Positions 5,296-34,374 of a stretch of 64,000 nt of DNA are shown piece after piece. Each line of letters begins with the position of its first letter. Position 1 is the first letter of the stretch. The notes below the pieces were generated by a model. That model saw nothing but the letters and a program-made list of their open reading frames with translations, was not told where the DNA came from and ran no database searches. Source of the stretch: Syntrophales bacterium (GTDB lineage: Bacteria; Desulfobacterota; Syntrophia; Syntrophales; UBA2210); NCBI GenBank assembly GCA_963662405.2, contig CAXXKT010000001.1, forward strand, positions 288,001 to 352,000, in the 5' to 3' direction. Made by a program: the position numbers and the translations under genes.

Positions 5296-5365
5296 GGCTT
5301 CTTCCTGAAGTCGGTAAGATTAAGGTTGAGGCAATTGCAGAAGATTGCTTTCAGTAATCATTAAC
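5296..5365 (-). repeat. Conserved element E, copy A
   Basis: Minus strand gttaatgattactgaaagcaatcttctgcaattgcctcaa...acttcaggaagaa; homologous to 16997-17119 and to 22943-22965 plus 24240-24353. Confidence 0.85.
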
Positions 5366-5416
5366 GGCGCACATAAGCGTCAGCGATAGCGGTCCAAATT
5401 GATGTGTTTGTTAAAA
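5359..5416 (-). repeat. attC-type recombination site (58 bp)
   Basis: Minus strand TTTTAAC...cacat(c)aa...ttatgtg...GTTAATG: R''/R' cores and L boxes with an extrahelical base, directly after a stop codon. Confidence 0.75.
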
Positions 5417-5424
5417 ACGAGGCA

Positions 5425-6097
5425 TTATTTTTTTTTAAGCTTTACGTCATTACTATCAAAGCTATATTCAAATCCTTGCTTTTTAAGTACACCCCGTAGT
5501 GTATTCCGAAAGGAAGAATAATAATCACAGAATGCTGTGTATCCAAAGTAGAGCATCAAGAAAAAAAATAGCAAATTAGCAAAAAAAATACTCCAAAACA
5601 TAAATTTAGATAAAACAAAATAATAATCTAGAAACTTTGGCAATATAGGTGCGGTAAATAAAAAAAACTATTGCTATATTTGCGTCGAATTCAGAATAAC
5701 TATAAAAATGTTTTAAATTGTACTTATAATAGTCAAGTCCCATATATGGCAGAAAATAACTTTCTGTGCAATCATTGCCGTCCAAATCTTTAAATTGTTT
5801 AAATTTCCCTTTTGCATTGGCTATGGGTTCGTATACTTTTTCTTCAATAAGCAGATGGTGAATTTCATCGATAATAAGACCGAACACGAAGCCCATGAAA
5901 ACAAATATTATTAACAAAACAGAAAGCAATTTTAGATCGAAATTTTTAACAATATAAAATGCTATTTTCTTTTGTGTTGAAATGTCGATTAACATAAAAG
6001 CACAAGCGGTAAGGAGCATACCTGGAATATTGTGCGCTAGAACTGTTTCAAAACTTGTAGATATTCCATATTTATTAAATTCTGAATCAGGGCTCAT
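5425..6097 (-). pseudogene. Multi-TM membrane protein, frameshifted in an A8 tract (5660-5667)
   Basis: ORFs 5606-6169 and 5425-5643 overlap in different frames; the hydrophobic reading continues across the homopolymer. Confidence 0.55.
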
Positions 6098-6165
6098 AGA
6101 TTCTACCTCATAAAGATTAATTCTACATGGAACAGAAACCACATATAATCCCATATGGTGTGGGT

Positions 6166-6639
6166 TCACTTAGGAAGCTTGCTATTAACAACTTTTGTTC
6201 CTGTATACCTCAATTCTTCCATCTCAGATTCTGCAACATCTTTATCAACCAACTCTGGATAAACCCGCCAAACGAGGACTCCTAAGACAACCGCCATTCG
6301 AACATAGCGAGTTTGGCCTTGTTCAAGTGTAAAAGTTAATCTTTTGTCAACTTCTGTAGAAAGGAGAACTTCGAAGTTGCCAGGCGAACGATCAACATAG
6401 AAAAATCCCCAAGATTTTGCTTCTCCGACTTTTTCGTTATTAAGCAAGACATTTGGAATAATTGCTGCCCCCAGAGATGAAGGTCGGTAAAAAAAGATCC
6501 TTCCTTTTTCATATTCAATCACCGGTATGGAAGGTTTTATTGATGAATATTGCGGTCCAGTAGTAGCACAGCCAGACAAAATAGAAACAAATAAAAATAA
6601 TATTGAAATTAAAATAAAATTACTTTTATAATTGAACAT
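6166..6639 (-). CDS. DUF2846-like lipoprotein
   Basis: Lipobox LSGC; GRIFFYRP...V-LN...GFFYVDRSPG pattern. Confidence 0.75.
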   Translation of the reverse strand: MFNYKSNFILISILFLFVSILSGCATTGPQYSSIKPSIPVIEYEKGRIFFYRPSSLGAAIIPNVLLNNEKVGEAKSWGFFYVDRSPGNFEVLLSTEVDKRLTFTLEQGQTRYVRMAVVLGVLVWRVYPELVDKDVAESEMEELRYTGTKVVNSKLPK

Positions 6640-6653
6640 TTACCATCTCCTTT

Positions 6654-7040
6654 CTATTTTATTGGTAGTGGATGTTTGTTCAACAACGGTGAAAAACAAT
6701 TTTCAACTGGCAAATAGAACCCAACTAATTCCCCTTTGGAGATGACAATATAAGCTTCATGTATATGGGCACCTTCGACAGTAAGTACCTGATTAATGGG
6801 TTTGTAGACATTTCCTTTATCTATTGCCCCAACAAAATCCCACCTCGATTCACGTTGAAGAAGTGTTTCGTAGCCAGTGTGTAGCTGAATAATCACGTCC
6901 TCTGTTAGGTATAAAGAGCCTTGAGATTTCTGTGAGGACATTGGTAAAAATTTAGTCGGAAACCTTCTTACTTCAGCCGCGCAACCAATTAAAATGAGAA
7001 TAAAGCATAGGAAAAATACAAAAATTAGTTTTTTGAGCAT
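6654..7040 (-). CDS. Hypothetical lipoprotein
   Basis: GGAGG SD, then MLKK, a hydrophobic stretch and LIGC. Confidence 0.75.
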   Translation of the reverse strand: MLKKLIFVFFLCFILILIGCAAEVRRFPTKFLPMSSQKSQGSLYLTEDVIIQLHTGYETLLQRESRWDFVGAIDKGNVYKPINQVLTVEGAHIHEAYIVISKGELVGFYLPVENCFSPLLNKHPLPIK

Positions 7041-7193
7041 TTCTAAACCTCCAATAGTAGATGACATAGACTCGGAACACCGGAGCATTTTAATAGATGA
7101 AGAAATGCGATTAAATATCCCACAACTTGCCGCGCAAGTACCGTCAGGATTCTAGTCTCTGTGGATGCGGTTTTTCGATGCTCTTTGCTCATT

Positions 7194-7928
7194 TTATATG
7201 ATGTCGGATATGATACTTAGAAGACGGCTTTTTACGCCTTGAACAATTTCGGCTTGTTGAACATTACGCCCTCCCGCGAAGACAGCGACTCGTGTTGTCA
7301 TTATTTTCTCAAAAGCTGTGACTCCGCTCTGTTCCTCTTCTTGTAATTTTGGGCTTGAACTAAAAGTAACTGTTTTTTTGTGCTTCTTAACATCGTCAAT
7401 AACACCAATTGTCACTCTGGCAATTATTATAAATGTATCATCGGTTACATAGCTTCCTATAATGGTCCCTATCGTTGCCCCTGTCAAAACCCCTATAGCC
7501 TCACCCGCTTTCGCCTCTGAGCGGTATCCTGCAATTCCACCTGCGGCACCTCCTAAGAAAGCATATTGTTCCGACATGTTGCTCTGGATATGACCACTAT
7601 ATTCTATGATTACGTCATACTTTATGCCGAAATTTCCTTGGTTATTAATCGAATATCCTTTTTCAAGAAATGCCTTTTCTAGTGATTTTATAAAACCACG
7701 AATGTTATAATTTAGGTCTCCAGATGCGTTCCTCGCTGAAATTTTAATCGTATTGTTTTCAAATTGGCTTGAATCAATAAAAAAACTCCTTTCAAGAACA
7801 GCACCATACTGCAAACCAGTTTCAGGATCGGAAATCATTCCGAACCTATTGGGCACAGCACATCCTAATAGCAACATAAGCAAAAGGAGGCTTGTAAGTA
7901 AAACCAATCTGTTTTGGAGTTTCATCAA
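7194..7928 (-). CDS. TraT-like (complement resistance/surface exclusion) lipoprotein
   Basis: Lipobox LLGC; SFFID...RNASGD; glycine zipper GGAAGGIAG/GVLTGATIG. Confidence 0.65.
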   Translation of the reverse strand: MMKLQNRLVLLTSLLLLMLLLGCAVPNRFGMISDPETGLQYGAVLERSFFIDSSQFENNTIKISARNASGDLNYNIRGFIKSLEKAFLEKGYSINNQGNFGIKYDVIIEYSGHIQSNMSEQYAFLGGAAGGIAGYRSEAKAGEAIGVLTGATIGTIIGSYVTDDTFIIIARVTIGVIDDVKKHKKTVTFSSSPKLQEEEQSGVTAFEKIMTTRVAVFAGGRNVQQAEIVQGVKSRLLSIISDII

Positions 7929-10273
7929 TAATCCTCCTTTAAGAAATTTTGCACCTCGGAAAAATGGATCGCAAAGCCAAGTCCTTCAACAGCATTAGCA
8001 ACAATTTTTTGATTATTTACACCTATAACTTTCCCTTCCAAAAACAGAGGCCCTCCCGAATTTCCAGGGTTAATTGCAGCATCAGTCTGAATAAAAAGAA
8101 TTTCTTTTCCACCAACATCATAAACGCTTTTGCGTTTCCGTATGGCGCTTACAATCCCACGAGTTATTGAAAATTCAAGACCACTGGGATGACCTATGGC
8201 CTCAACTTCTGTACCCAGTTCAATTATATTAGATTTATAAAAATTTACTGCTTCACCTCGGGCTTCAACTTTGATAAGAGCCAAGTCTAACCTAACATCA
8301 CTTTTAATTACCTTCCCAAATGTTTCTAAGCCATTATGGAGTCTCATTTCGAGAAATTTTGACCCCTCGATGACATGATAGTTTGTAAGTATCAAATTTG
8401 GTCCAACAAAAAATCCTGATCCTATTTTACCCTCAGGGTTATATATTACGACAACATTATTAAACCTTGGATCATTGAGGGATTTTGTTGAATGTTTTTT
8501 CTCTTTGTAGTTTGCAAGTGCTACATTTTTGTCTTTGAGCATTGCGGTCATTAATTTCTCTTCACTTAAAAGTCTTTTCGTCTTATCAATATTGGTTAAG
8601 TAATCTTGCATTAGACTGGACAGGTCGACAGACACTGCTTCATTTTCAAATGACTCAATGTCCTGCTCACTGTTGTAAGTGGACATATGCCCGGATAAAT
8701 TTGTGTCCTCATCTTTTAAGGAATAGGCAACTTTGAAAACTTTCTCTTCACTCACGTCAAATACTGACTTGAAGTATTTTTTGTTGGGCCTGTCGAGGAT
8801 ATAATAATTGACAGTCATCGATTTTGTCACTTCTACATCTGAAACACTAAACTTATAATCCTTATGGATTGCTTCTTGTATATATTCCGGAGTATTTATA
8901 AATGCTTGGTTTGCAGTATTCAATTTATCTCTCCATCCTACGATTGCTATAGCCTTAACGACTTCACATGCAGCGGCTGCTAAAGTACCACCGCCACAGA
9001 ATGTACCCTGGGCAGACAAAAGTCCTCTTTCAGCTTCTCGTACCGCAATAGCAGCTTGCCTAGAATTGGGATTACTAACGTCTCTGTAGCCAGCCAAATA
9101 TCTTGATTTTATTTGATCTCTTTTTTTGATGCGCCTTTTAATGCTGGCTTGGGCAACATTAAAGACAATTACGAAGTTTGAATCAGCAGTCTCTGAAAAT
9201 GCCTTTTTAAGAAGACATGTCCTATGTGGAAAAGGAATATCAACATTGACCTTAGCTGGAAATTCAACATACCCTTCATCTAAAAGAGTTTTACTTGTAG
9301 ATTCCACAAACGAGACATGTTGATTCTTGATTTCTTTGATGGAAAACCCTTTATCATTTGCGGTTTTAATTGCATCTAAAAGTAAAGCAAGCTCTACTCG
9401 ATTATTATCCCCTTTTTTATCTTCGACAAAACGTTCGACATATAAACTCCCGATTAAGTAATCTGAATCCGAGCTTGTGTAATCTTTATAGGTATTGTTG
9501 AATTTTTCGATATCATCACAACAAGCACACTGCAACTTTTCCAGAATGAAGTTGAAATTTTCTGAAATAATTTCATTTTCATTCAAAATATCAAATGGAT
9601 AACTATTAAAAAAGTTTTTTTCATTAAATAAGTCATATTCCTTAAAGGCAAGAGAAGCATAAGATTTGAGTTTGTCTTTTAAAATTTGCGCATGCTGCTC
9701 AAGCCCTTCAACAGCAGCATACCTATACTGGTCTTTGCTGAGCAGACAAAATGAATTGTATTCATCGATTATTGTTTGTGAGAGGGAGATCTCGTTGGAT
9801 ATTATGTTCCATTGCTGCGGGGGTGCTGGCCAGACAGTATGTGATTCTATCCTCAAATTTGCATCGTTTATTTTTTTACAGAAACAACCATTAAGATGAT
9901 TGGCAATCATTTGAAAATAAACCGTATATTTTTCTTTTCTATTCTCCCAAGGCAAAACCCCTTCTTTATTAAAATATGACTCATGGTATTTATCATATAA
10001 TCTGGCAGCCTTTCGAAAATACCCATTTTTTACTAATTCTTCAAAATGGTCTCCTTGATCGTTAAAAATAGTGTATTCTCTTTCTTCAAATACATCACTA
10101 TCATCCTCTTTTGGAGCTATAGGCGTTTCTTGAACACTATTGTCCTTTATGCCCACAGCAGACATAAGTGTTTTTTGAATACTGCCCTCCTTAAGCCCAA
10201 TAGTTGAACAACTTGAAATACATAGTAAAAAAAAGATCAATAGAATTAGGCGTATTTTCTTGTGGGGAGTCAT
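7925..10273 (-). CDS. Lipoprotein with C-terminal trypsin-like (S1C/HtrA-type) serine protease domain
   Basis: Lipobox ISSC; GSGFF, TNYHV, DLALIK and GNSGGP catalytic-triad motifs. Confidence 0.85.
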   Translation of the reverse strand: MTPHKKIRLILLIFFLLCISSCSTIGLKEGSIQKTLMSAVGIKDNSVQETPIAPKEDDSDVFEEREYTIFNDQGDHFEELVKNGYFRKAARLYDKYHESYFNKEGVLPWENRKEKYTVYFQMIANHLNGCFCKKINDANLRIESHTVWPAPPQQWNIISNEISLSQTIIDEYNSFCLLSKDQYRYAAVEGLEQHAQILKDKLKSYASLAFKEYDLFNEKNFFNSYPFDILNENEIISENFNFILEKLQCACCDDIEKFNNTYKDYTSSDSDYLIGSLYVERFVEDKKGDNNRVELALLLDAIKTANDKGFSIKEIKNQHVSFVESTSKTLLDEGYVEFPAKVNVDIPFPHRTCLLKKAFSETADSNFVIVFNVAQASIKRRIKKRDQIKSRYLAGYRDVSNPNSRQAAIAVREAERGLLSAQGTFCGGGTLAAAACEVVKAIAIVGWRDKLNTANQAFINTPEYIQEAIHKDYKFSVSDVEVTKSMTVNYYILDRPNKKYFKSVFDVSEEKVFKVAYSLKDEDTNLSGHMSTYNSEQDIESFENEAVSVDLSSLMQDYLTNIDKTKRLLSEEKLMTAMLKDKNVALANYKEKKHSTKSLNDPRFNNVVVIYNPEGKIGSGFFVGPNLILTNYHVIEGSKFLEMRLHNGLETFGKVIKSDVRLDLALIKVEARGEAVNFYKSNIIELGTEVEAIGHPSGLEFSITRGIVSAIRKRKSVYDVGGKEILFIQTDAAINPGNSGGPLFLEGKVIGVNNQKIVANAVEGLGFAIHFSEVQNFLKEDY

Positions 10274-10408
10274 CAGTTCCTCCTAAAATGTTAGACAAGT
10301 ATTAATATCGAATAAATTGGTGAGGAAAAGCATCATTGCTCGTTTAGCCTGCTCACAAAAAAGCCTTATCTCTCGTTCGATGAGATACAGTAAAAATACT
10401 TGATGTCC

Positions 10409-11122
10409 CTACATATTAATGCTTTGTGACGGTCTCTCATCAATTCCTTCCTGTTGCTCGTTTATTCTTTCCTGTGGAGAAACGATTGTTCCTGACAACC
10501 CATATTCAAGGATGATATTTTCTTCGGTCTCTATGTCTTTCAAGATCACGGACACTTTCCATCCTGAGAGGTTATTTATATCTTCAGGAACATGAAAGCA
10601 TATTAGGCCTTCTGTTACTCCACCAGCAACAAGATTGCCGCCTTTGAGCATTCGCGATTCATAATCTGCCTGTATTTTTTCGTTTGTATTTGAAACATTT
10701 ATTGCACTTGGAATTGCGCCAATACAGCCAAATGCTACTCCCCAACCAGCTGTTCTGAAAAAACTTTTTTTTGCTTTCTCAACTACTTGTTCTGTTGACA
10801 TTACAGGGCTTCTAGTTCCGGTGGGATCGATTAGATTAATGCCATCAGTGTTAAAAACGACCGTTTTCCCATATGATTTGTTTTGTATATTTATTTGAAC
10901 TGGAAGTACGCTATATAGTAGTAGATCCTCATCAAAGTAAGTTTTTAGTTCTGATTTTAAGTGAAACACCTTCACCATAAGAAAAATCCCATTCTGTTCA
11001 ACTGCATTTTCTTGCGCCTTGAGATCAAAAGATAAATCTGGCTGACGAGCAGCGTTATGCGAGGAACAACCTGGAAAGGAAAGTACCATCAAGCAAATCA
11101 GGAAAAAGTTTTTCAACTTCAT
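10409..11122 (-). CDS. Hypothetical lipoprotein
   Basis: AGGAGG SD; lipobox-like FPGC. Confidence 0.75.
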   Translation of the reverse strand: MKLKNFFLICLMVLSFPGCSSHNAARQPDLSFDLKAQENAVEQNGIFLMVKVFHLKSELKTYFDEDLLLYSVLPVQINIQNKSYGKTVVFNTDGINLIDPTGTRSPVMSTEQVVEKAKKSFFRTAGWGVAFGCIGAIPSAINVSNTNEKIQADYESRMLKGGNLVAGGVTEGLICFHVPEDINNLSGWKVSVILKDIETEENIILEYGLSGTIVSPQERINEQQEGIDERPSQSINM

Positions 11123-11243
11123 CTTTTCTCCTCCTTAGTGCTCATTGGATTGTGAATCCTGCTTCCTTAAACCTTAGTCGATTAGATTAATGTTTTTAAC
11201 TATAAGCATGAACAAGTAATATAAAAAGTTGGTGATGGGGCAT

Positions 11244-11458
11244 AAAAAAACCCCATCTCTCATTTTGAGAAACAGGGCTTTGATGATCAGACCATAATCC
11301 ACTCCTTGGTTACAGCTGTTCACAAGCAAAAAGAATCAAGATCAAAATCGCTACTTAGTTAGCTCTATGATGATGTATTGTCAAGATATTTTACGATGAG
11401 ACTTTCGAACGGTAATCCCCAGTAGTGCCCCCTGATCAAAATCATTTGTTAGTAGGTG
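11244..11458 (-). promoter_or_regulatory. Conserved leader L, copy A (TTGACA, structured segment, terminator)
   Basis: Homologous to 18354-18563 and 28688-28899. TTGACA at 11384-11379; terminator hairpin plus U-tract at 11278-11244. Confidence 0.85.
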
Positions 11459-11485
11459 TAACAAATGGCGAGAGAACATTGCTAA

Positions 11486-11722
11486 TCATTCATCCTTGTG
11501 AATGGCATCAGCAAGCATGATCAGTCTCAGAAAATACTCGGGATCCACTTGAGCCGCTTCATACTGCTGGCGAGCCATCAGATGTTCGTTCTCTTGGTAG
11601 AACTGCTCCACAAGCTGCAGGTACTCTTCCCTTCCCTCCGTGAAATCTTCACCCTTAAGGCTTTGCACCTTTGCCAGGATACCCAAGGTTTTCTGCAACA
11701 TATGGGCTGTTTTTTCGGGCAT
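11486..11722 (-). CDS. Hypothetical protein
   Basis: ATG ORF with GAGGA upstream, 78 aa. Confidence 0.55.
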   Translation of the reverse strand: MPEKTAHMLQKTLGILAKVQSLKGEDFTEGREEYLQLVEQFYQENEHLMARQQYEAAQVDPEYFLRLIMLADAIHKDE

Positions 11723-17119: not shown

Positions 17120-17134
17120 TGTGTTCTAAAAGAA

Positions 17135-22949: not shown

Positions 22950-23041
22950 ATTACTGAAAGCAATCAGAGCTGGTCGGGCAAATTTGGACAGGTGCATAAG
23001 TGGGAAAGTTGCTCTATAGTGTGAGTAAGGAGGAAAGAGAT

Positions 23042-23344: not shown

Positions 23345-24171
23345 TCAAGAGAGAAAAGAGTGTGCCCATAACCCGTCAATGCGAACTCTTGGAGCTGTCC
23401 CGATCGAGTGTTTATTACTCTCCGGTTCCGGTCAGCGCGAAGGATCTGGAGCTGATGCGTCAGATTGATGAGATTCATCTTCAGTATCTCTTCTATGGGA
23501 GTCGGAAGATTCGCAATGAGCTGTGGCAGAGAGGGTATGATATCGGACGTGATAAGGTACGTCGGTTGATGCGTCGCATGGGGATCGAGGCGTTGTACAT
23601 CAAGCCGAGATTATCGATAAAGCATCCCCAGCACCCGATATATCCGTATCTGTTACGGGGACTTGATATCATCCGTCCCAACCACGTATGGTCTGCCGAT
23701 ATCACGTATATTCCCATGGAACGAGGGTTCTGTTATCTGGTAGCCGTTATGGACTGGGCGAGTCGGATGGTCCTCTCCTGGCGGTTGTCGAATACGTTGG
23801 ACAGTGCGTTTTGTGTGGATGCGCTTGAAGAAGCACTCACCACGTATGGGCGCCCGGCTATCTTCAATACCGATCAGGGCAGTCAGTTTACCTCACAGGC
23901 ATTCATCGATGTCCTTCGCTCTCATGATATCTCTATCAGCATGGACGGTCAGGGGCGATGGATGGACAATGTCTTCATCGAACGGCTCTGGAAGAGTGTC
24001 AAGTACGAAGATATCTATCTGAAGGCATATGGTTCAATGAAAGAGTTGAAGAAAGGGCTTACCGACTATTTTCAATTCTACAACGGGAAGCGTTGGCACA
24101 ATACTTTTGACAAGAAGACACCAGCTATGGTTTATTTTGAGTCACTACCACAGGGACAGGCTGCGGCATGA
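23341..24171 (+). CDS. IS3 transposase OrfB (DDE)
   Basis: WSADITY, NTDQGSQF and DNVFIERLW motifs. Confidence 0.93.
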   Translation: MIKREKSVPITRQCELLELSRSSVYYSPVPVSAKDLELMRQIDEIHLQYLFYGSRKIRNELWQRGYDIGRDKVRRLMRRMGIEALYIKPRLSIKHPQHPIYPYLLRGLDIIRPNHVWSADITYIPMERGFCYLVAVMDWASRMVLSWRLSNTLDSAFCVDALEEALTTYGRPAIFNTDQGSQFTSQAFIDVLRSHDISISMDGQGRWMDNVFIERLWKSVKYEDIYLKAYGSMKELKKGLTDYFQFYNGKRWHNTFDKKTPAMVYFESLPQGQAAA

Positions 24172-24570
24172 ACACAACCCCAGGGCAACTTCCCACTTAT
24201 AAATCCCTGTCCTCTGTCCTAATAAACCGGACCACCTCAATCTTCTACAATTTCTTCAATCATAATTTTATCTACTTCAGGAAGAACACCACCGGAAAAG
24301 TCATAGCAGAGGTTGCTTTGCCCAGCCTATGGCAAATCTTGCACCTTACACCTTATCCTCACCATCGAGTGCGCCGAGAGGTTACCGATTATTTATTGAA
24401 GTCATAATTTTGAACTGATGCTCCTGTGTAGCAGCTTTCGCTAGGAAGTGCTCAAGAAAGATCAAAAGAATATGAATAGTTCTGATTATCGCTGTCTTTT
24501 CAAAGCGTGAGTTTCAAGAAGCCGAATATGAAAAGTTGTCTCATGCAAACATCCATCCGTGTGTGGATAC

Positions 24571-27500
24571 CTAATGGATACTGTGCCGCCGCACCGAAAA
24601 TTGTGTGTCCTTAATCAAATCTTTAGCTGCATGCTCAGGCATACCTTCATAGGATCTAAGCAGTTTCAGGTCTTCACGTGTTCCTCTGTGCATGATAGCG
24701 GTGGCAACGTATTGCAGTGCTTCTAATGAACGTCGCTGATCCAGCCACACTGCCATCGTCTTAATAATCTCAGACCACAGAACTCCCGTCTTCATGAAGT
24801 CATCGATCCAGTCATGGATCCATAATACATGACGTTTCTCAATAACCATTTCGTCAAGTTCTGCAAAAGCTTTATCTTTATCCCATTTGAATTTCAGGTA
24901 TGGCGGTTTTAGATGACTATCTAACAATTCTTGGCGGATTACGAACCACCCTCGCCTATTGCATGTCCACCATAGATCGCCGATATCGTGTGCCGACAAG
25001 AGGTGTAGGTAAGGTGCTAGCGCGTATATCTGGGCTTCACGGATAAGTCCTTGGCGGTTCCTCGTGTTAATCCCAAATCTCGAACTCAAATACTTCATGA
25101 GCTCAGTTGGTTCAGGACACTCATTGATGGCGGATTTTGCAGCTTCCATTAGGCTTGGTGTCGAGTGATAGAGCGCTGCCTGAACGAAGTCGGATACGAA
25201 GCGAAGATGCCTCCAGTGCTTCAGGAGAAGTCGCTCACCCTGACTCTCAGGAAGCTGTATAATTAACTCAGAAGTAATCCAGTCAGACGCGAAGGACTCG
25301 CCCCAAGTCCGCTTTGCCCGATCACCACGCCTGCCTAAAAACTCATCCAGAGCTTCGGTGAGTTCCGGTGACCAAAGATAGCGACCACATTGCCACCAGT
25401 AACTATGATCGTCTGTTTGCAACTTTTCGATCATCGCCGGAATCGCTTGTTGGTCTCCTCGGGTCAATCGTGCCCAGAGTATTTTATCTGCCAATTCAAC
25501 CGTGGGAGGCACAGCACGGAGCACCTCAATATCACCAGAATCTTGTGTCGCTGCCCAAAGTGAGAAAGCTTGTAGACGCAGATGCTTGTCTTTTGTTTCA
25601 TCTCGCCAAAGGTCAAGTAAAAGATTACGGGATACCTTTGACATCGGACAGCCATGTTCCTGATTACGTTGCCAGTCATCCTTCGCCGTCATAGCGAGGT
25701 GTGAAAACGATCCAGTTCCCTCCAGTCGTCGATGGGTAGTAGCGAGCGTCTCAGCTACGAACAAGACTGCTTTTGGATGGTCCATGCCATGAAGCATGTA
25801 GAAGATCGGCCATTTCAGGTCATCCTGAGATCCGCGTTGAACGAAGAAATCGATTGCAGAAAGCGGTGGCCATCGGTGGAAAGCCCAACGAAGTTCATAT
25901 TCAGCCACCGAGTCACGCGGCGACGGCAGGCCTTGATTGTCTGGCTGATTTGAAAGCGCCGCCCAGGCATTACAAACTGGTTCAAGGTGGCGTGCCGGGT
26001 CATCTCCGCAGCACTCCCCGAAGGCCCAAAGATACTCCGCGAGATGATCGCTGCGTTTATCATCTGAGGTCCAGCAAGCTTCAATAGCCAAAGCCAAACG
26101 TGGGGAGGCAATATGGCCAGCCAACCGCAAAGCGCCTATCCTAAAAGCGCTGTGCAAATCTGTTCGCCTGAGGAAACTGTCCAAAGCCTTGGTCAGGCTA
26201 CGGCCATAGTGGAGCTTTGCATGCTCAAGTTGGATATCACGCCACGGCGCCCCAGAGCCAGGTTCAAGATGGATACAGAGTTCTATCCCACCGGAGAGAT
26301 CTCCATTACGGAGCCGCGCGAGTTGGGCGCTTGTGGTTCGATCGCTAAACTTACGGACCAACGCAGGGACCTCGGGGGAGTCTGTTCCTGCCAACATAGA
26401 TAGAGCTTCCATTCTCAGATGGAGGTTGGACTGATCGTGCGTGGCAGGATTGTCTAGCCAGTCATTGATCGCTTGAAGAATGGCATGATGATGCGGTTTG
26501 CTGGCTTGGCCGAAAACGCGCAATGCATGGAAGAGCGCGAGCGGGTTCGAAGAGGCGACGCGCGGGAGGAAGTTTGGCTTGGGGTTTCCCCATACAAGGA
26601 CAGCACCCATCACCTCTGTAAAGTAGGGTTCTGCCACTACCTGTTCCGCCAAGAGATCTCGGCGGGCCAGCTCGCCTGCGGCGTCGGCAAGAAGCCAATC
26701 GCGCACGCGGTCATGCCGGAACAAAAGCTGCTGGTCGTCGGATGAATCGGAGAACCGAATCAGCTCGCCTTGATGTGCAAGACGTCCGAGCAAGCGCACA
26801 GGTTCGCCCTGCAACCCGGCCCAGTCGCTAACCTCGATCCAATTAAGTTCGATTTGCCGGTTTGAGAGCATCCCGCCCGCAAGTGCGCGAAGCACCTGAT
26901 GGTACTCTGCGGCTGGAAGGTCCCCGTACACAGCCGCAGCTCGTGAAAGAGACCCCTTTACAAATTGACTAATGATTTTTTGCGGATCAGGTGTTGTGCA
27001 TTGGTCATGGAGCGCGATGAGGAGTGGATCGTGACCAAGCGCATGAGAGATAGCCTCGGCACTCAATGAGCTCAGCTCTCGACCTTCCAGTCGAGCCCGT
27101 GCCAGAACGGCATTACGGCCTTCACTCTTGGTAAAGCCACCGGCTGTTATAATGAGTGGTTCAATGCGCTTTCGGGAATCTTCCCTCAAAGAAGAGAGAT
27201 TCTCCGGCCATAGAGGGCATACGAGCCGCCAGCGAGAGAACTCGCTATGACTATCCTTCGAAGGCGTGTGACTCCAGCTAGCGAGCTTCTCCACCAGGAA
27301 CTGCGTTTGTCCCGAACGATTGATATCTTCGACTACAAGAAGCAACGGTCGCTCGGGCGAGCAAAACGATAAAGCTGATGTAGACGGCAAAGCCAATGGC
27401 GGATGGAGTTTGCACAACGTCGTCGTAACGGCTTGATCAAGAGTTGTCGCCGAGGCGACTTCCGCATGAGATAGGATAATCCCGAATCCACCACCCTCTA

Positions 27501-28251
27501 TGTGCACCGCGAGTCTCCGATAGCAGGCTACCGACTTACCTAAGCCAGACCCCGCCACCAAGAACGTCACGTCACGATTCATGCTGGTTGTCAGTATAGC
27601 GTCGAGCGATCGTGAAACCCAGGCATTCGGATTGTCCGGTAGATTGTGGATCTCCAAGCTCTTCTTGGAAAGTTCATGGAGCAACTCGGTCGAGAGTTGT
27701 TCCTGGTCGATGCCCAAAAAAGAGCAGCGGATCCACTGTCCTGCGGGATTGTCAAGGAAATGGCTCAGCCTGGAGCTTGGCCACAGGTCAATCTCTAGTC
27801 CGCGATCATACCCCGCCGCCGCAACGGCACGAACCAGAGATTGGTCAGGTTCTTTGTTCGTCGTGAGGACCAGTGTTACACGCAAATTCGGTGTTCGTGT
27901 CCGCTCCTCCATCGCCAGCTCCGCTGTTTTGATGAGATCTCCGGCAGGCGCTGTAGACTGCGACTTCTTACGCGGCCTAACTTTGGATGGATCGTGCAGC
28001 CACTTCTTTTTCAGATCGTTTCGGGCGGTGGTCGTGTGGTGAACAGCTATCATATGTGGTGGATCGGCACCCGGCACAAAGCAGATTCCATCTAAGGGTG
28101 CCTTTACCGTCTTGCCAGCGACGTTCACACCTGTATGAGCTAACGAGTGGTAGGTCTGATTCGCTTCACGTAAGATCGCCGTCGCAAAGCGCTCAAAAAG
28201 TCCTTCATCGGTGATATTTGACAGGGCTTGTTGAGTTCTCTCTGCGCTCAT
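24571..28251 (-). CDS. Large STAND-like NTPase with N-terminal nuclease-like region (candidate anti-phage protein)
   Basis: FERFATAILRE N-terminus; Walker A AGSGLGKS; Walker B LLVVED; FRHDRVRDWL; long helical C-terminus. Start uncertain (28251 vs 28341). Confidence 0.7.
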   Translation of the reverse strand: MSAERTQQALSNITDEGLFERFATAILREANQTYHSLAHTGVNVAGKTVKAPLDGICFVPGADPPHMIAVHHTTTARNDLKKKWLHDPSKVRPRKKSQSTAPAGDLIKTAELAMEERTRTPNLRVTLVLTTNKEPDQSLVRAVAAAGYDRGLEIDLWPSSRLSHFLDNPAGQWIRCSFLGIDQEQLSTELLHELSKKSLEIHNLPDNPNAWVSRSLDAILTTSMNRDVTFLVAGSGLGKSVACYRRLAVHIEGGGFGIILSHAEVASATTLDQAVTTTLCKLHPPLALPSTSALSFCSPERPLLLVVEDINRSGQTQFLVEKLASWSHTPSKDSHSEFSRWRLVCPLWPENLSSLREDSRKRIEPLIITAGGFTKSEGRNAVLARARLEGRELSSLSAEAISHALGHDPLLIALHDQCTTPDPQKIISQFVKGSLSRAAAVYGDLPAAEYHQVLRALAGGMLSNRQIELNWIEVSDWAGLQGEPVRLLGRLAHQGELIRFSDSSDDQQLLFRHDRVRDWLLADAAGELARRDLLAEQVVAEPYFTEVMGAVLVWGNPKPNFLPRVASSNPLALFHALRVFGQASKPHHHAILQAINDWLDNPATHDQSNLHLRMEALSMLAGTDSPEVPALVRKFSDRTTSAQLARLRNGDLSGGIELCIHLEPGSGAPWRDIQLEHAKLHYGRSLTKALDSFLRRTDLHSAFRIGALRLAGHIASPRLALAIEACWTSDDKRSDHLAEYLWAFGECCGDDPARHLEPVCNAWAALSNQPDNQGLPSPRDSVAEYELRWAFHRWPPLSAIDFFVQRGSQDDLKWPIFYMLHGMDHPKAVLFVAETLATTHRRLEGTGSFSHLAMTAKDDWQRNQEHGCPMSKVSRNLLLDLWRDETKDKHLRLQAFSLWAATQDSGDIEVLRAVPPTVELADKILWARLTRGDQQAIPAMIEKLQTDDHSYWWQCGRYLWSPELTEALDEFLGRRGDRAKRTWGESFASDWITSELIIQLPESQGERLLLKHWRHLRFVSDFVQAALYHSTPSLMEAAKSAINECPEPTELMKYLSSRFGINTRNRQGLIREAQIYALAPYLHLLSAHDIGDLWWTCNRRGWFVIRQELLDSHLKPPYLKFKWDKDKAFAELDEMVIEKRHVLWIHDWIDDFMKTGVLWSEIIKTMAVWLDQRRSLEALQYVATAIMHRGTREDLKLLRSYEGMPEHAAKDLIKDTQFSVRRHSIH

Positions 28252-28687
28252 AACGTGTTTCAAGCTTACAGGAATCCATATTTGTGGTTGAATGATATAT
28301 ACTCCGCTATTCCGTATATCATCAATTTCAGAACGACACAAAAATTTCTTGGTTCAGGGAACAGTCAGATACTTCACTGCATGTTTCTACCCTTATTCAA
28401 TAATCTGGCCAGAAACCCGACCTATACCTTTGTATTTGAAGTCTTTCATACCTTCGATTATGCGAGTTCCAAGGAGTACAGGAAGGAGCAGATAATCTAC
28501 ATGAACCTAGAATGTGCAGCCCGAGTTGTGCATCTTTCAACCCGCATTCGATAAGGTTGGCTGACGAATTGTGGTGCTGACTTGTATTTGTAGTCAATAA
28601 ATGTGGGAAATGGATTCGCGGCTTGGCTTGCAATCCGTACTGTTCAGGCAGGATAAAGGAAAATGCCAGAGTGTCGGTTATTGACGC

Positions 28688-28899
28688 CACCTACTAACAA
28701 GCAAAATTCTCTCACAATTAAAACGATGATTACCGATTGAAAGCCTCACGGTAAAATCTCTTGACAATACATAATCATAGAGTTAACTAAATAGCGGTTT
28801 TGATCTTGATTTTTTCTGTTTGTAAACGGCTGTAACCTAGAGGGGATTATGGTCTTATCACCAAAGCCCTGTTTCTCACAAAGAGAGATGGGGCTTTTG
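28688..28899 (+). promoter_or_regulatory. Conserved leader L, copy C
   Basis: CACCTACTA at 28688; TTGACA at 28761-66; terminator 28866-28898. Confidence 0.85.
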
Positions 28900-28936
28900 T
28901 ATCTTGTGGCAAACCGGAAAGAAAGAGATTTTCACA

Positions 28937-31900
28937 ATGAACAAATCCAGAATTCATGCTCATTACACATTTATATTAACCGTAATCTTTCTGATTGTAC
29001 TGGGCATAGGTATTACTAGGGGAGGCAATGCAGCGACGATTGATGTTTATGTAAAAAACGTCAATGGTGCTTATGTACAAAATGCGTCTGTAAAGCTCTA
29101 CAATGTTTCTTGGGTGCCGCTTGCAACAAAGAGAGAGGTGGTCGGGTTTCTTTGGACAGGTAACAGGGATTTATAAGTGGGAAGTTGCCCTGTGTTTGTG
29201 TTCATGCCGCAGCCTGTCCCTGTGGTAGTGACTCAAAATAAACCATAGCCGGTGTCTTCCTGTCAAAAGTATTGTGCCACCGTTTCTCGTTGTAGAATTG
29301 AAAGTAGTCGGTAAGCCCTTTCTTCAACTCTTTCATTGAACCGTATGCATTCAGATAGATATCTTCGTACTTGACGCTCTTCCAGAGCCGTTCGATAAAG
29401 ACATTATCCATCCATCGACCCTTACCATCCATGCTGATGGAGATGTCATGAGAGCGAAGGACATCAGTGAATGCCTCTGAGGTAAACTGACTGCCCTGAT
29501 CGGTGTTGAAAATATCCGGGCACCCATACGTGGAGAGAGCTTCTTCCAAAGCATCCACACAAAACGCACTGTCCAACGTATTCGACAGCCGCCAGGAGAG
29601 GACCATCCGACTCGCCCAGTCCATAACGGCTACCAGATAACAGAACCCTCGTTCCATGGGAATATACGTGATATCGGCAGACCATACGTGGTTGGGACGG
29701 ATGATATCAAGTCCCCGTAACAGATACGGATATATCGGGTGCTGGGGATGCTTTATCGATAATCTCGGCTTGATGTACAACGCCTCGATCCCCATGCGAC
29801 GCATCAACCGACGTACCTTATCACGTCCGATATCATACCCTCTCTGCCACAGCTCATTGCGAATCTTCCGACTCCCATAGAAGGGATACTGAAGATGAAT
29901 CTCATCGATCTGACGCATCAGCTCCAGATCCTTCGTGCTGACTGGAACCGGGGTGTAGTACACACTCGATCGGGACAGTTCCAAGAGTTCGCATTGACGG
30001 GTTATGGGCACACTCTTTTCTCTCTTGATCATCGCTTTGCGCTCGTTCCGTTGATGCGACCGAGCGCATGTGATAAAAAATCATTCTCCATCGATAACTG
30101 TCCGATCTTGGCGTGAAGTTCTTTCACATCCGGACCCTGGTTGTCCTTATGACCCTTGCCAAATACGTCCGATGCATGATCCAACAGCTGCTTCTTCCAT
30201 GCAGTAATCTGGTTCGGGTGAACCTGATACCGCTCGGCAAGCTCAACGATCGTCTGGTCCCCTTTCAGGGCCTCCAATGCCACCTTCGCCTTGAAGGATG
30301 GTGCATGATTCCTCCGTGGTCTCTTGCTCATATCTCTTTCCTCCTTACCTCTACTATAGAGCAACTTCACCACTTATGCACCTGTCCAAATTTGCCCGAC
30401 CAGCTCTGAGTACGGATGCAAACGGATATGTGAGATTTGCGCTCCTGGACTATGGAACTTATCATTACGAAGTCCGGTATACAGGGGATACTGTGGAGTT
30501 TTGGGGTAGTGATGAGAATATTTCACTCCAACAGCCTCTTATCACGCGTTCTTTCACCCGCAACTGGCCTTATAAACACGATGAGGAATTGCCTTCTAAT
30601 CCTTATGTTGGTGAGGATGTGCAACTGAAATGCACCGTTAAAAACAACTTATCCTATTCCAGAAATGTCAGAGTTGAACTCTGGGTCGACAGAAACAAAA
30701 GTAGCTCTTGGGATTTTTATGAACTTAGCTCAGCACAAACGGTCTCGGGAAATGGCGATACAAAGACTTTTACCTTTGAAATAACACCTAATAGCTCTGG
30801 AACATACTATTGGAAGGCATATGTGCGGAGTTGGAACGATGGATCGGATGCTTTCCTTGTTACTGACACAACCGGGTGGAATACAGCTTTTACCGCCAGT
30901 TATCAAACAGGTTCTGTCGCCATCTATGTTGAGAACATAAACGGCACAAGGACCCAAGGGTGCGAGGTCATTCTGGATGATGATATTGAGATTACGGATT
31001 CATCTGGCAAGGCAACTTTTTCATCTGTGCGTTATGGAGATTATCACTATGAGGTGTATTACGATGGAACCGGCACCAAGGAGTTCTGGGGAAATGATCA
31101 AATTACTGTTGACAGCTCATCAGAGTTAGACACCTTCCGCCGCAATTGGCCGTATAAAAGCAGTGAATTGCTCCCGAGTGATCCGAACATTGGTCAGAAT
31201 GTTCAGATACAAATAACGGCTAAAAACAACCTTTCGTTTTCGCGGAATGTGAAGGTGGAACTGTGGGTTGACAGAGATAAAAACAGCGCTTGGGATTTTC
31301 ATGAGCTTAGCGGGTACCAGTCAATCTCTGGAAGCGGTGGCACCAAAGTGTTTATCTTCAATATAATTCCCAATACTTCGGGGACTCATTACTGGAAGGC
31401 ACACATTTTGAGTTGGAACGATGGTGCGGGCAATTATATCGTAACGGATACGACTGGATGGGAGACTGCATTCAACGTTTCAGGAGAACCACTACCACCT
31501 CTAACAGGGCGAATCGTATTTCATCGTGATTCTGATAACTACAACTCTCCACATCCAGCAAATACTCCTGATGACGGCCATGTGTTTGTTTATAATCTTG
31601 CATGTGGGATTTCTCCGTCTAAAGTAACGAACGGTTTAGACTTGGGCAATGCCATGAATCCCCACTTTTCCCCAGATGGATCGAAAATAACCTTTATGGC
31701 CATTCCCAGCGGCCAGTCCTTATCTTGGGATTATATGCGAGTTTATGTGCTCGATCTCGCGGACAATTCGCTCAGCGACCTCGGTATTGGTCAAGATCCT
31801 AAATTTTCACCTGAACCACCATTTATAATTTTCAAAGGATGGGACTCTAACACAAATGAGTGGCAGATATGCAAGATGCAGTCTGATGGGAGTCAACGGG

Positions 31901-34047
31901 TGCGAATTACAGATACTGTGGGAGAGAAATCAGGACCGAATTACTCCCCTGATGGTCATCATATCGTGTACTGGCTCAATGCCAAGGAAAATGCGGATAT
32001 TTGGCGCATAAACGCGGATGGCTCCGGGGCAGTATCTCTTGTCGCAAACCCCGGAATCCAAGACTACTATCCCATATATCATAATGCTAACAATATGCTA
32101 TATGCGCAGTGGGACTCTTCAACTGAACCCCATCCAGACAAGATTTATAACTTGGACATCTCAGAGGGAGTGCCGGGTGTGCCCACCAAGTTAGGACTGA
32201 ACTCTGATGGAAATGAATACGAAGATGCAGATGCTTTTCCGGTTGTTGATCTTATTGGTTTCTCAAGCACCAGAAAAAACGGATGGCCGGATTACGACCT
32301 ATACATTGCAGGAGACAGCGGATCACCGTTCGGCGAGATTGCAAATGCAAACTCAACACTTGGCGAACTTGGCGGAGCCTACTCACCATACGCTTATGCC
32401 AGGAAACTCAAGATGATCTCACCGGCAGATGACACAACCCTGATAGCTGGTTCCTCATACACTCTGAAAGTGAGGGCCTATTCAAACGGAGGTGTCTGGT
32501 CGGGGGCAAATCCGTCTGTAACATTTCAGGGGCAGAGTTCGCAAACATATACAACTTTGAGAGATGATGGCATAGGGGGTGATAAAGCCTCTGGTGATGG
32601 CATTTATTCTAAAACAGTCACGTTGCCATTAACAACAGGTGACTATTCCGTCACCTCCACCGCGGTTTCTTACGATAGTGGCTTCGAGAATAATATCGGA
32701 TCCAGAACAACTGGAGTTACTCTTGCTAGCAGTGGCAATGAAACTAGAATTATTAGTTTATCGGGCAACTTGGTTTTTGGGAGTGTAATGGTGGGCCAGC
32801 CAGCGCAACAGACCCTGACGATTTATAACAATGGGACCGATACACTGATGATTTCCGACATCAGCTATCCCGAGGGTTTCAGCGGGGACTGGGATGATGG
32901 ATCGATCAACCCAGGAGATTATCAAGATATCATTGTTATTTTTGCACCGACAGAAGAAAAAGGCTATGGTGATACGATCACGGTCAGTTCGAACGCGACG
33001 GGTGGGGACAACACCATATCCTGTTCGGGAACGGGGACGACAATTTCCACAGCTGGCATACCTTCAAGCATCGATGTTCCGACGAGCGACGGCGACGGCA
33101 ACTATACGGTGCGTTGGGGGGCATCCAGCACTGTCAATGTTATATATGTTTTGGAAGAGGCCACGAATGACGAATTTTCCAGTGGTCTTCGGGAAGCATA
33201 TTCTGGATCTTCCCTCAGCACGACGATCATCGAACGTAGCAGTGGTACGACCTATTACTATCGTGTGAAAGCGACTCGGAGCGGCTATACTGACAGTACC
33301 TGGCGGGAAAGTACGAATGGATGTGCGGTGACGGGTACTGACCCCAAGTTGTGTTGTGATATGGACTATGTTCCCTGTTCATCAGGGGGACCTTGTTATC
33401 CCTTTGATTACGAGGGATATCACTTGCCCCCATCTTGGTGCCCGGGTACGGATACTGGCTCCGATCCCGGTGGTTGCTGCAAGGCGATTATAATCATCGG
33501 TGACCATCCAGATGATCAAGTGAGGGCATTTCAGACGGGGAGTAGAATCGGAATCAAGATTATGATTTTAGTCGGAGGCGCTTTCTGGGCCGAGGATGTC
33601 TCGACAACAGGAATCGGTCTAGGAACCTATTCCACGGAGATTGAAGCACGCGAGGGTGGCTACCCGTCGGTCTTTGCGGAAAATAAGTATTATGCAGACT
33701 ACGAGGAACAGACTGAAGTGACCGCTATTCAGTCCGATACTGTGTGTGCGGTTCCTCCAGCGAGCAGAGCAAGGATTGTCAGATCTGTAGCAACAAGCCT
33801 GACTTCTGGGTATGTAATAACGCCCACTGATATAGAGGAGGTGCGCGCTTACTGGGCGATCAACATCCCAAAAGTCCGCATTGATCCATCTCTGATTGAA
33901 GATGGATCGCTTATCTCCGTGATAATCGAATTGCTGGATTCTACAGGCGCTGTGGTCTGCGAACGTGTCTACGATATTGCCTATGTAGGCTGTCAACGGG
34001 CCATGCCCTGGATACCGTTACTGTTGCTTAGAAATCCAGAAGAGTGA
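28937..34047 (+). pseudogene. Large secreted/surface protein (duplicated Ig-like repeats, TolB-like propeller, Ig/FN3-like domains) interrupted by IS3
   Basis: Removing the IS and one GAG restores the frame (...VPLATKSTDANGYV...), giving about 1277 aa. Signal peptide, PD40-like FSPDG repeats, C-terminal AMPWIPLLLL. Confidence 0.85.
29134..30407 (-). mobile_element. IS3-family element, copy 2 (1274 bp, 3-bp TSD GAG)
   Basis: Near-identical to copy 1; GAG at 29131-33 and 30408-10. OrfA ends at 30029; OrfB is 29202-30032. Confidence 0.92.
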
Positions 34048-34374
34048 TAGTGATCCTTTCAGTTCGGTTTTTGGTAATTGATATTTTGTTCTTGTTCCTT
34101 TTTGTTGATTTCCATATGTAATATAGCATTACGATTGTAGTGCCTCAAAACAACACTTCAGGAAGAAACCTTTTCTACCCGAAAACCTCCAAAACAATTC
34201 ATGCATATTACGTTCATTTTTTACTACCCGAGCTTTTGAAACTATTAACAAATCTCAACATCTAATATCGTTACGATCTGTAATCATTATGCAAATAATG
34301 TAACTAATCGGTCAGCTTGGGACACAGCGCTAATGCTCTCCTTGCGTCTCGCGTGTTCGTTCTCATTTTCCACG

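What the first reader, a model, noticed from the sequence alone, without database searches (positions are those of the whole stretch)
5296..34167. Repeated non-coding L...E platform that captures integron-type cassettes without an IntI gene
Seen: three copies of a ~210-bp leader L (11458-11244 minus, 18354-18563, 28688-28899), each followed by unrelated cargo and then an element E (5365-5296 minus; 22943-24353; remnant tgcctcaa...acttcaggaagaa at 34141-34167). A fourth, cassette-free E lies at 16997-17119, abutting L-B once IS110 is removed. In modules A and B the cargo starts at a G^TT 43-47 bp after the L terminator and ends in an attC whose R' is the first 7 nt of E (GTTAATG). Different cassettes therefore occupy the same nucleotide position of a homologous locus. 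The only tyrosine recombinase in the window is P4-like. Established: attC clusters without intI (CALINs) and IntI use of secondary sites are known. Inference: this is a dedicated, multi-copy landing and expression pad on a satellite-like island, served by an integrase in trans. I do not recognise it as a described element.
Basis: partly seen in the sequence, partly recalled or inferred. Interest (0 to 1): 0.9.

Follow-up and report, generated by a model that had tools for sequence, protein, structure and literature searches.

The report
Orphan integron docking sites behind a repeated leader
A repeated non-coding leader on this genomic island is, in one of its three copies, followed by two genuine integron gene cassettes with no integrase nearby, and across the genome about ten copies of the same leader sit in front of spare copies of the integron's docking site, so one distant integrase probably serves many separate gene-capture sites.

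Summary
The repeats are real. L, E, the IS110 between E and L-B, and the different cargo all check out.

Module B (18612-22943) is two canonical integron cassettes. Each attC hairpin has an R'' that is the exact complement of its own cassette's first bases. Module A's claimed attC does not fold, and module C has neither attI nor attC.

L is not island-specific. The genome holds 66 L matches, 40 of them complete, and L occurs in 15 of 41 related genomes, all in one family. It reads as a promoter-like -35, a Shine-Dalgarno run, a two-codon mini-ORF and a terminator, and it precedes many ordinary genes.

About 10 of the 40 complete copies are fused to attI-like sites. These match the sites beside the genome's two intI genes, one intact (1.9 Mb away) and one broken. 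Different cassettes follow the same crossover base.

E is the conserved flank right of the crossover. It is contiguous with the next L, so the repeated unit is E+L.

L-B has lost the attI body. No empty site and no RNA data were found.

Earlier notes of this scan describe the same system elsewhere in this genome.

Verdict: a new variant of CALIN/chromosomal integrons, with moderately high interest.

The parts
5128..5144 (.). Far end of the island: a 17-nt direct repeat of the tmRNA 3' end (the partner is at 41443-41459).
5241..5365 (-). E-A. It starts with GTTAATG at 5365. It is not preceded by an attC hairpin.
5366..11199 (-). Cargo A, 36% GC. It encodes lipoproteins, a TraT-like protein, DUF2846 and a 782-aa trypsin-like protease. 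Cassette status is not shown.
11242..11492 (-). L-A, a complete leader. No attI-like site lies downstream.
16997..17119 (+). E-4. It is contiguous with L-B once the IS110 element is removed.
17120..18353 (+). IS110-family insertion (transposase 17373-18341). The same junction is seen in two other L copies.
18327..18611 (+). L-B. It has a conserved CTTGACA, an SD run, the mini-ORF ATG GCC TGA and a terminator (18531-18555 plus T run). The crossover G is at 18611. The attI body is missing.
18612..19657 (+). Cassette B1, a 325-aa Mrr_cat nuclease. Its attC is 19602-19663, and R'' GCCTAAC is the complement of the cassette start G|TTAGGC.
19658..22943 (+). Cassette B2, a 1037-aa P-loop protein with no Pfam or PADLOC match. 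Its attC is 22865-22949, and R'' ACCCAAC is the complement of G|TTGGGT. Its R' is GTTAATG.
22943..24353 (+). E-B (22943-22963 and 24245-24353), split by an IS3-family element (22964-24244).
24571..28341 (-). Gene for a 1256-aa P-loop protein on the opposite strand, between E-B and L-C. No family match; unrelated to B2.
28642..29014 (+). L-C, a complete leader whose mini-ORF has lost its stop. The cargo gene starts at 28938.
28938..34047 (+). Cargo C, a large secreted protein (CARDB and Ig-like domains). It is interrupted by the second IS3 copy (29129-30409, reverse orientation).
34141..34172 (+). E remnant. It has an exact 13-mer shared with E-A and E-B. The nhmmer match is weak (E 1.2).
40038..41255 (-). 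P4-type tyrosine integrase of the island (Arm-DNA-bind_3, Phage_int_M, Phage_integrase).
41436..41790 (-). tmRNA gene, the island's integration site.

Best explanation
The window holds a 36-kb island integrated at the tmRNA gene (5128-41436). It carries three copies of L.

L is a family-wide, multi-copy 5' leader. It has a promoter-like -35 element, a Shine-Dalgarno run, a two-codon mini-ORF and an intrinsic terminator.

In roughly a quarter of its complete copies in this genome, L is fused to a copy of the integron docking site attI. These L+attI units are integrase-less platforms. The genome's own integron integrase is encoded elsewhere and inserts circular cassettes at the G^TT of each attI copy. 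Read-through from L would then express them.

Module B of the window is one such platform. It holds two canonical cassettes, but the attI body has since been deleted.

E is the conserved DNA just right of the crossover. It is also the 5' part of the next E+L unit, so it always ends up behind the last cassette.

Modules A and C are ordinary L-driven cargo without detectable cassette boundaries.

Shown: the repeats, the attI homology, the cassette signatures and the presence of intI.
Inferred: that IntI acts in trans today, that L is a promoter, and that the mini-ORF and terminator form an attenuator.
For: L is a genome-wide leader:
- The genome has 66 nhmmer matches, and 40 have both the promoter and the terminator parts.
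- Of 41 copies with a located terminator, 36 are followed within 400 nt by a co-oriented ORF of at least 100 aa.

Integrases:
- An intact intI lies at C1:2211990-2212934 (471 bits against a cut-off of 265).
- A second intI is split by a TAA.
- Both point the same way as their arrays.

attI copies:
- The sequences just left of the crossover beside both intI genes recur behind L copies.
- Alignment A2 shows the 165-bp attI body at least 95% identical at the intI-proximal locus and at two L-linked loci, with three different sequences after G^TT.

Cassette signature (R'' complementary to the preceding crossover heptamer at all 4 free positions):
- Seen at the first hairpin after 4 of 15 attI-like sites, including the window's B1. 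Three of four positions match at 4 more sites.
- Also seen for B2 and for two second cassettes.
- B1 and B2 hairpins fold better than shuffles (z -3.3 and -2.3).

Sign of trans activity:
- A 140-bp ORF-less mini-cassette is the first cassette both at the attI beside the intact intI and at an L-linked attI on contig 2. The two copies are 99.3% identical. There are 8 full-length copies among 10 BLAST matches.

First cassettes differ between platforms: Mrr, TIR, HNH, DUF5677 and others.

E:
- E starts exactly at the R' of an attC hairpin in 3 of 13 copies, against 21 of 1500 random GTT sites.
- E lies directly upstream of L in at least 8 loci.

Relatives:
- L followed by an attI-like site occurs in three other species of the genus.
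- In G003 this locus is on a different contig from its three intI genes.
Against: - L-B keeps only about 8-11 nt left of the crossover, and no attI-like match exists in the window. This copy may no longer be a usable docking site.
- Module A's terminal 'attC' does not fold. Modules A and C, and an L...E module in another genus (G016), show no attI or attC. Cargo between L and E is therefore not always a cassette.
- In 10 of 13 E copies no attC hairpin precedes E.
- No empty attI|E junction was found in 38 family genomes.
- The sigma-70 scan calls no promoter in L-B, because the -10 is weak.
- Only the terminator helix shows covariation.
- My attC scanner is home-made. Its first version was non-specific (40 hits per shuffled Mb against 17 real). 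The second version also returns a few hairpins inside genes.
- G006 and G007 have L+attI but no intI was detected. Both are draft assemblies.
Confidence: 0.68

Rival explanations
1. Passive relics. The L-linked arrays are pieces of one former integron, scattered by IS elements, island transfer and homologous recombination. No cassette is captured at these sites any more, and L and E are merely repeated intergenic DNA that travelled along.
For: - IS3- and IS110-family copies sit in E-B, in cargo C, upstream of L-B, and between the intact intI and its attI.
- L-B lacks the attI body.
- Cury et al. 2016 list rearrangement and IS activity as routes to CALIN (passages seen).
Against: - At least 8 L-linked attI copies carry different first cassettes at the identical crossover base.
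- A 99.3%-identical mini-cassette is first both at the intI-linked attI and at an L-linked attI on another contig.
- The attI bodies are kept at 95% identity or more.
Confidence: 0.12
2. General cargo slot. L...E is a conserved pair of flanks, a leader upstream and E downstream. Any cargo between them is swapped by homologous recombination in the flanks. Integron cassettes are only one of several kinds of cargo.
For: - Modules A and C, and the L...E module of G016 (another genus), have different cargo but no attI or attC.
- In 10 of 13 E copies no attC hairpin precedes E.
- L and E are each conserved across genera.
Against: - Module B and the other L+attI arrays have exact IntI-type junctions.
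- Only 5 of 40 complete L copies have E within 450 bp upstream. Most L copies have no E within 12 kb downstream.
- No case of the same slot holding alternative cargo in two strains was examined.
Confidence: 0.12
3. L is a free-standing small-RNA gene family, made of a promoter, about 105 nt of RNA and a terminator. It acts in trans, and the downstream genes are unrelated neighbours.
For: - L has a strong terminator with compensatory changes and a nearly invariant 25-nt stretch just before it.
- There are about 40 copies.
- No aptamer-like helices are supported by covariation.
Against: - In 36 of 41 copies a co-oriented ORF of at least 100 aa starts within 400 nt.
- attI copies and gene starts follow at fixed short distances.
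- An SD run at ideal spacing, an ATG (43 of 46) and a stop at codon 3 (36 of 46) are conserved.
Confidence: 0.12

Closest known systems
[quoted passage not shown] 2016, PMC4889954, passages read; Ghaly et al. 2021, PMC8618304, passages read)
   Same: There are two or more attC sites and no intI nearby. An IntI is encoded elsewhere in the same genome. Off-target or trans insertion is among the proposed origins.
   Different: Here the arrays start at recognisable copies of the genome's own attI, each preceded by a conserved leader, and there are about ten such platforms. The passages I read say attI is unknown for most integrons and was not searched for, so this layout would not have been noticed.
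Sedentary chromosomal integrons with intI in the same orientation as the array (orientation class recalled, not from a call)
   Same: The two intI loci of this genome have intI, then attI, then cassettes, all on one strand. Cassettes include defence-type genes (TIR, HNH, Mrr, AAA_15). This matches the abstract of the 2024 bioRxiv preprint on chromosomal integrons as stores of defence systems (listing only).
   Different: The window has no intI. The promoter role is taken by L, which also carries a terminator.
attG / secondary-site insertion of cassettes (Loot et al., bioRxiv 10.1101/2022.09.11.507474; abstract and outline seen)
   Same: Cassettes are inserted by IntI away from the integron and are expressed if they lie near a promoter.
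   Different: By that abstract, attG sites differ greatly from att sites. The L-linked sites are near-identical copies of attI. L-B, which lacks the attI body, is the only copy for which a secondary-site origin stays open.
Ribosome-dependent transcription attenuators with short leader ORFs (general class, recalled)
   Same: An SD run, a very short ORF and an intrinsic terminator lie upstream of the regulated genes.
   Different: The ORF has only two codons. No alternative antiterminator helix is supported by covariation. No Rfam family matches. Function is untested.

Membership tests
Complete integron | An intI gene adjacent to the array | tested here: not met
   None of the 27 TIGR02249 matches in the genome lies in C1:288001-352000. 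The intact intI is at C1:2211990-2212934.
Complete integron | An attI site at the head of the array | tested here: inconclusive
   L-B keeps only AAACACTG^TT and lacks the 165-bp body seen at the intI-proximal locus and at two L-linked loci. There is no attI-HMM match in the window. Elsewhere, 9-10 L copies are followed by full attI-like sites.
Integron gene cassette | An attC site: an imperfect hairpin bounded by R'' (..AAC) and R' (GTT....), with R'' complementary to the cassette's own first bases | tested here: met
   B1: 19602-19663, -16.7 kcal/mol, z -3.3, R'' GCCTAAC against start GTTAGGC. B2: 22865-22949, z -2.3, R'' ACCCAAC against start GTTGGGT. Module A's candidate (5359-5428) fails, with z +1.5.
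CALIN | [quoted passage not shown] | tested here: met
   Two attC sites lie 3.3 kb apart, and there is no intI in the 64-kb window. IntegronFinder itself was not available. The sites were found with my own constrained-fold scan.
Integron Pc promoter | A promoter upstream of attI that transcribes the cassettes | not testable with these tools
   CTTGACA is nearly invariant, and a TA lies 17 nt downstream. The sigma-70 consensus scan calls nothing in L-B. No RNA run is listed.
Known RNA family (Rfam 15) | A match at the gathering score | tested here: not met
   Only the tmRNA and one tRNA match in the window. The best hit to L-B at E<=10 is 18 bits against a gathering score of 115.
P4-like phage satellite | A P4-type integrase at a tRNA or tmRNA site, a primase-helicase, and capsid-redirecting genes | tested here: inconclusive
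   The integrase (40038-41255), the primase-helicase (35245-36972), the tmRNA site and the 17-nt repeat are present. No satellite-specific genes were looked for.

The most novel reading that the evidence does not exclude
The E+L+attI unit may itself be a mobile 'platform cassette'. It would be an ORF-less block of about 0.5 kb, bounded on both sides by IntI crossover points: G^TTAATG on the left and the attI G^TT on the right. It carries its own promoter, a translation-sensing attenuator (SD, two-codon ORF, terminator) and a docking site.

IntI could excise it and re-insert it. This would seed new, separately regulated sub-arrays inside arrays and on islands and plasmids. One integrase would then run a distributed, conditionally expressed network of capture sites.
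Probability: 0.15. Interest if true: 0.85.

Novelty: new variant of a known kind. Interest (0 to 1): 0.62.

Why it matters
Cassette arrays without an integrase (CALINs) are common, but it is unclear how they form, whether they still capture genes, and how they are expressed.

This genome, and at least three related species, point to a concrete answer. The docking site is copied many times, each copy is paired with a conserved leader, and the copies are spread over chromosome, island and secondary replicons.

If the distant integrase uses them, an integron is a distributed system rather than a single locus. The leader would also give cassette expression a regulated switch instead of a constitutive promoter.

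Independently, L is an undescribed, abundant cis-regulatory leader of one bacterial family. It sits in front of c-di-GMP signalling, secreted-protein and defence genes.

Tried and rejected
- First attC scanner: non-specific, with 40 hits in 1 Mb of shuffled sequence against 17 in real sequence. I dropped it and used a constrained single-hairpin scan plus the R''/crossover complementarity test instead.
- Rfam at gathering and at E<=10: nothing for L or E.
- Sigma-70 scan of L-B: no promoter called.
- RNA evidence: no RNA holder is listed, only two runs of unknown kind from one study.
- RNAalifold and an all-pairs covariation scan on 29 and 46 L copies: only the terminator is supported. Candidate antiterminator pairings (GAACAG with CTGTTT; the SD run with the terminator's 5' arm) have almost no compensatory changes.
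- E as the 3' end of a reverse-strand gene: short peptide-like conservation, but stops interrupt every copy. Rejected as coding.
- Empty attI|E junction: 0 of 38 family genomes, allowing up to 3 mismatches.
- intI loci of relatives: no L, E or attI-HMM match beside 5 intI genes of G003, G016 and G021.
- B2 against the 1256-aa protein: not similar (E 2).
- PADLOC on 10 cargo proteins: only weak nuclease and protease domain matches.
- Literature search with word-start matching: swamped by 'attitude' and therefore useless. Searches found no paper describing multiple orphan attI sites with a shared leader. I read only listings and abstracts, plus passages of PMC4889954 and PMC8618304. Supplements were not opened.


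Full report
**Observation.**
- The three L copies are real. They lie at 11492-11242 (-), 18327-18646 and 28642-29014, with nhmmer scores of 205-253 bits and 75% mean column identity. The repeat families are listed.
- E is real at 5365-5241 (-), at 16997-17119, and at 22943-22965 plus 24238-24353.
A second copy, 95% identical and inverted, lies at 29129-30409 inside the cargo C gene.
- The remnant at 34155-34167 shares an exact 13-mer with E-A and E-B: 3 matches against 0.01 expected.
- E-4 does abut L-B once the IS110-family element (about 17120-18353) is removed.

**Setting.**
- A 17-nt repeat of the tmRNA 3' end at 5128-5144 pairs with the tmRNA gene at 41436-41790. The L and E copies therefore lie on a 36-kb island.
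- The island has a P4-type integrase (40038-41255) and a primase-helicase (35245-36972).
- It also carries umuDC, an HU-like gene and a non-specific endonuclease.

**L is a genome-wide leader, not an island feature.**
- A BLAST-type search with L-B gave 34 matches in the genome. A profile of three copies gave 59, and a profile of 36 copies gave 66, on all three contigs.
- Forty matches carry both the promoter-like part and the terminator part.
- L reads as follows: conserved upstream DNA; a nearly invariant CTTGACA; 17 nt further on a conserved TA; about 100 nt of moderately conserved sequence; a purine-rich Shine-Dalgarno run; ATG at a fixed position (43 of 46 aligned copies, including 8 from relatives); a stop at the third codon (36 of 46); then, 9-10 nt later, an intrinsic terminator whose stem shows compensatory changes.
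- No other helix is supported by covariation, and no Rfam family matches.
- In 36 of 41 copies with a located terminator, a co-oriented ORF of at least 100 aa starts within 400 nt.
- Pfam gave matches for 19 of the 40 longest such ORFs. They include HNH, TIR, AAA_15, Mrr_cat, DUF5677, a protein kinase, three HD-GYP-type proteins, two GGDEF proteins, two Lcl_C proteins, beta-helix proteins and a patatin.
- L was found in 15 of 41 genomes searched: 7 of 7 in the genus, 14 of 24 other genomes of the family, and 0 of 16 in other families of the order.

**The integron link.**
- The genome encodes one intact integron integrase (C1:2211990-2212934, 471 bits against a cut-off of 265). A second is split by a TAA (C1:30608-31553).
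- Both point in the same direction as their cassette arrays.
- The sequence just left of the crossover beside each intI recurs elsewhere. A pattern scan and a small profile give 15 credible attI-like sites. Two lie beside the intI genes, 9-10 lie directly behind L, and 4 have no L.
- Seen from L, 10 of 40 complete copies have such a site within 500 bp. L-B, with its shortened site, makes an eleventh.
- Alignment A2 shows the whole 165-bp attI body at least 95% identical at the broken-intI locus and at two L-linked loci (C1:2673130 and C2:288399). Three unrelated sequences follow the G^TT.
- A strong internal check is that a cassette's R'' must be complementary to the cassette's own first bases. 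All four free positions match at the first hairpin after 4 of 15 attI-like sites (C1:30433, C1:236423, the window's site at C1:306611, and C1:2668809). Three of four match at 4 more.
- All four also match for the window's second cassette and for two other second cassettes.
- A 140-bp ORF-less mini-cassette has 10 BLAST matches, 8 of them full length. It is the first cassette both at the attI beside the intact intI and at an L-linked attI on contig 2, at 99.3% identity. This is the best sign here of recent insertion in trans.

**The three modules of the window.**
- Module B is canonical.
  - The crossover G is at 18611.
  - Cassette B1 (18612-19657) encodes a 325-aa Mrr_cat nuclease. Its attC is 19602-19663 (-16.7 kcal/mol, z -3.3).
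  - Cassette B2 (19658-22943) encodes a 1037-aa P-loop protein with no Pfam or PADLOC match. Its attC is 22865-22949 (z -2.3). Its R' GTTAATG is the start of E.
  - L-B shares about 40 nt after the terminator with the two L+attI-B copies. It then jumps to AAACACTG^TT, so the attI body has been deleted, and no attI-profile match exists in the window.
- Module A is not shown to be a cassette.
  - The claimed attC (5359-5428) folds no better than shuffles (z +1.5 and +0.8).
  - No attI-like site follows L-A.
  - The TTTTAAC / GTTAAAA match lies in 36%-GC DNA. I judge it compatible with chance, given the free choice of GTT and AAC sites.
- Module C has no attI and no attC. Its gene starts 39 nt after the terminator and is broken by the IS3 copy.
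- The 1256-aa gene between E-B and L-C lies on the other strand and is unrelated to B2.

**What E is.**
- E has about 20 matches in the genome at E<=0.05.
- In at least 8 loci E lies directly upstream of L. The repeated unit is therefore E + spacer + L, and some copies use another conserved upstream piece instead.
- After E-B a decayed L 5' part can be seen by eye (inference).
- E begins exactly at the R' of an attC hairpin in 3 of 13 copies whose 5' end is present, against 21 of 1500 random GTT sites. A fourth copy has a clear hairpin but a changed R'.
- E is not coding. The peptide-like conservation on the reverse strand is broken by stops in every copy.
- E contains a 7-bp inverted repeat that keeps pairing through changes on both arms.
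- The simplest reading is that E is the right-hand flank of attI. Every insertion at G^TT pushes E downstream, which is why it ends arrays. E is also the head of the next unit.
- An empty attI|E junction was not found in 38 family genomes.

**Relatives.**
- L followed by an attI-like site occurs in G006, G003 and G007, all in the same genus.
- In G003 this locus is on contig 2, while its three intI genes are on contig 1. No intI was detected in the drafts G006 and G007.
- L...E modules with other cargo occur in G003 and in G016, which belongs to another genus. No recognisable attI or attC was seen in G016.

**Mechanism.**
- Shown: the repeats; the attI copies; canonical cassettes at identical crossovers; an intact intI elsewhere.
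- Inferred: IntI acts in trans at L-linked attI copies; transcription starts in L; the SD, mini-ORF and terminator form an attenuator that gates read-through.
- On the geometry, a ribosome ending at the stop codon would reach only the first base of the stem. A simple 'ribosome melts the terminator' model therefore does not fit well. An SD-region/terminator-arm alternative pairing is possible but unsupported.

**Comparison with what is known.**
- The closest described category is CALIN. Its proposed origins include trans insertion, loss of intI and rearrangement (PMC4889954 and PMC8618304, passages read).
- The passages I read state that attI is unknown for most integrons and was not searched for.
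- Three usable literature searches found no description of many orphan attI copies sharing a leader. I saw listings and abstracts only, beyond the two papers above and the outline of the attG preprint.
- Earlier notes of this scan (e1-7687080, e1-7687078, e1-7687074, e1-7687073) describe the same system at other places of this genome. I reached the same reading from my own calls.

**Limits.**
- There are no RNA data and no IntegronFinder run.
- The attC scan is my own and returns some hairpins inside genes.
- Counts of attI-like sites depend on a small profile built from 13 of the same sites.
- The relatives are a sample and include drafts.

Noticed in passing
window 17120-18353; also G000 C1 near 158579 and 1415807: An IS110-family element sits at the same position of the L upstream region (between ...CAC and CTACTACT) in three L copies, with identical IS ends. 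This suggests sequence-specific targeting of L.
   Followed up: partly
window 22964-24244 and 29129-30409; G000 C1:2212960-2214240: Three copies of one IS3-family element were seen. One splits E-B, one breaks the cargo C gene, and one lies between the intact intI and its attI, where it may uncouple the integrase gene from its array.
   Followed up: partly
G000 C1:2214392-2214531 and 9 other places: A 140-bp ORF-less mini-cassette, essentially one long hairpin-rich attC, has 8 full-length copies at 90-100% identity. Six lie in or just beyond the array of the intact intI, one lies about 10 kb downstream of the broken intI, and one is the first cassette at an L-linked attI on contig 2.
   Followed up: partly
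window 19712-22825 (+) and 24571-28341 (-): Two large P-loop proteins (1037 and 1256 aa) have no Pfam or PADLOC match and are not similar to each other. One is an integron cassette. Both are candidates for undescribed defence genes.
   Followed up: partly
window 5366-11199 (-): Cargo A is AT-rich (36% GC against 48% for the window). It encodes a lipoprotein set: a TraT-like protein, DUF2846, and a 782-aa protein with a C-terminal trypsin-like domain that weakly matches the protease part of PADLOC RT-Protease_XI.
   Followed up: no
window 12107-15050 (-): The island carries umuD/umuC (Peptidase_S24, IMS), an HU-like DNA-binding protein and a secreted non-specific endonuclease next to the L/E modules.
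   Followed up: no
E copies, e.g. window 22955-24265 (with the IS removed) and G000 C1:130234, 155444, C2:286992: E holds a 7-bp inverted repeat (AAGCAAT...ATTGCTT). In other copies it reads AAGAAAT...ATTTCTT or similar, so pairing is kept through changes on both arms. It could be a protein site or a hairpin.
   Followed up: no
G000 C1:30433-30600 (-), C1:2673400-2673571, C2:287957-288130 (-): The 165-bp attI-B body contains at least six copies of a GTATTAC/GTAATGA-type motif in both orientations. These are candidate integrase-binding repeats, and the start of E resembles one of them.
   Followed up: no
G000 C1:131660-133256 and C1:160119-161781: Runs of two or three adjacent tyrosine-recombinase genes lie next to orphan attI-like sites (C1:131251 and C1:158269). 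Earlier notes of the scan read them as a separate small mobile element.
   Followed up: no
window 28400-28641; G000 C1:1955700-1955800; locus L033: A second conserved upstream element of about 130-200 bp, containing GTCAATAAATG and ACTGTTCAG..GATAAAGG, replaces the usual spacer in front of L-C and of other L copies, including one in another species.
   Followed up: no
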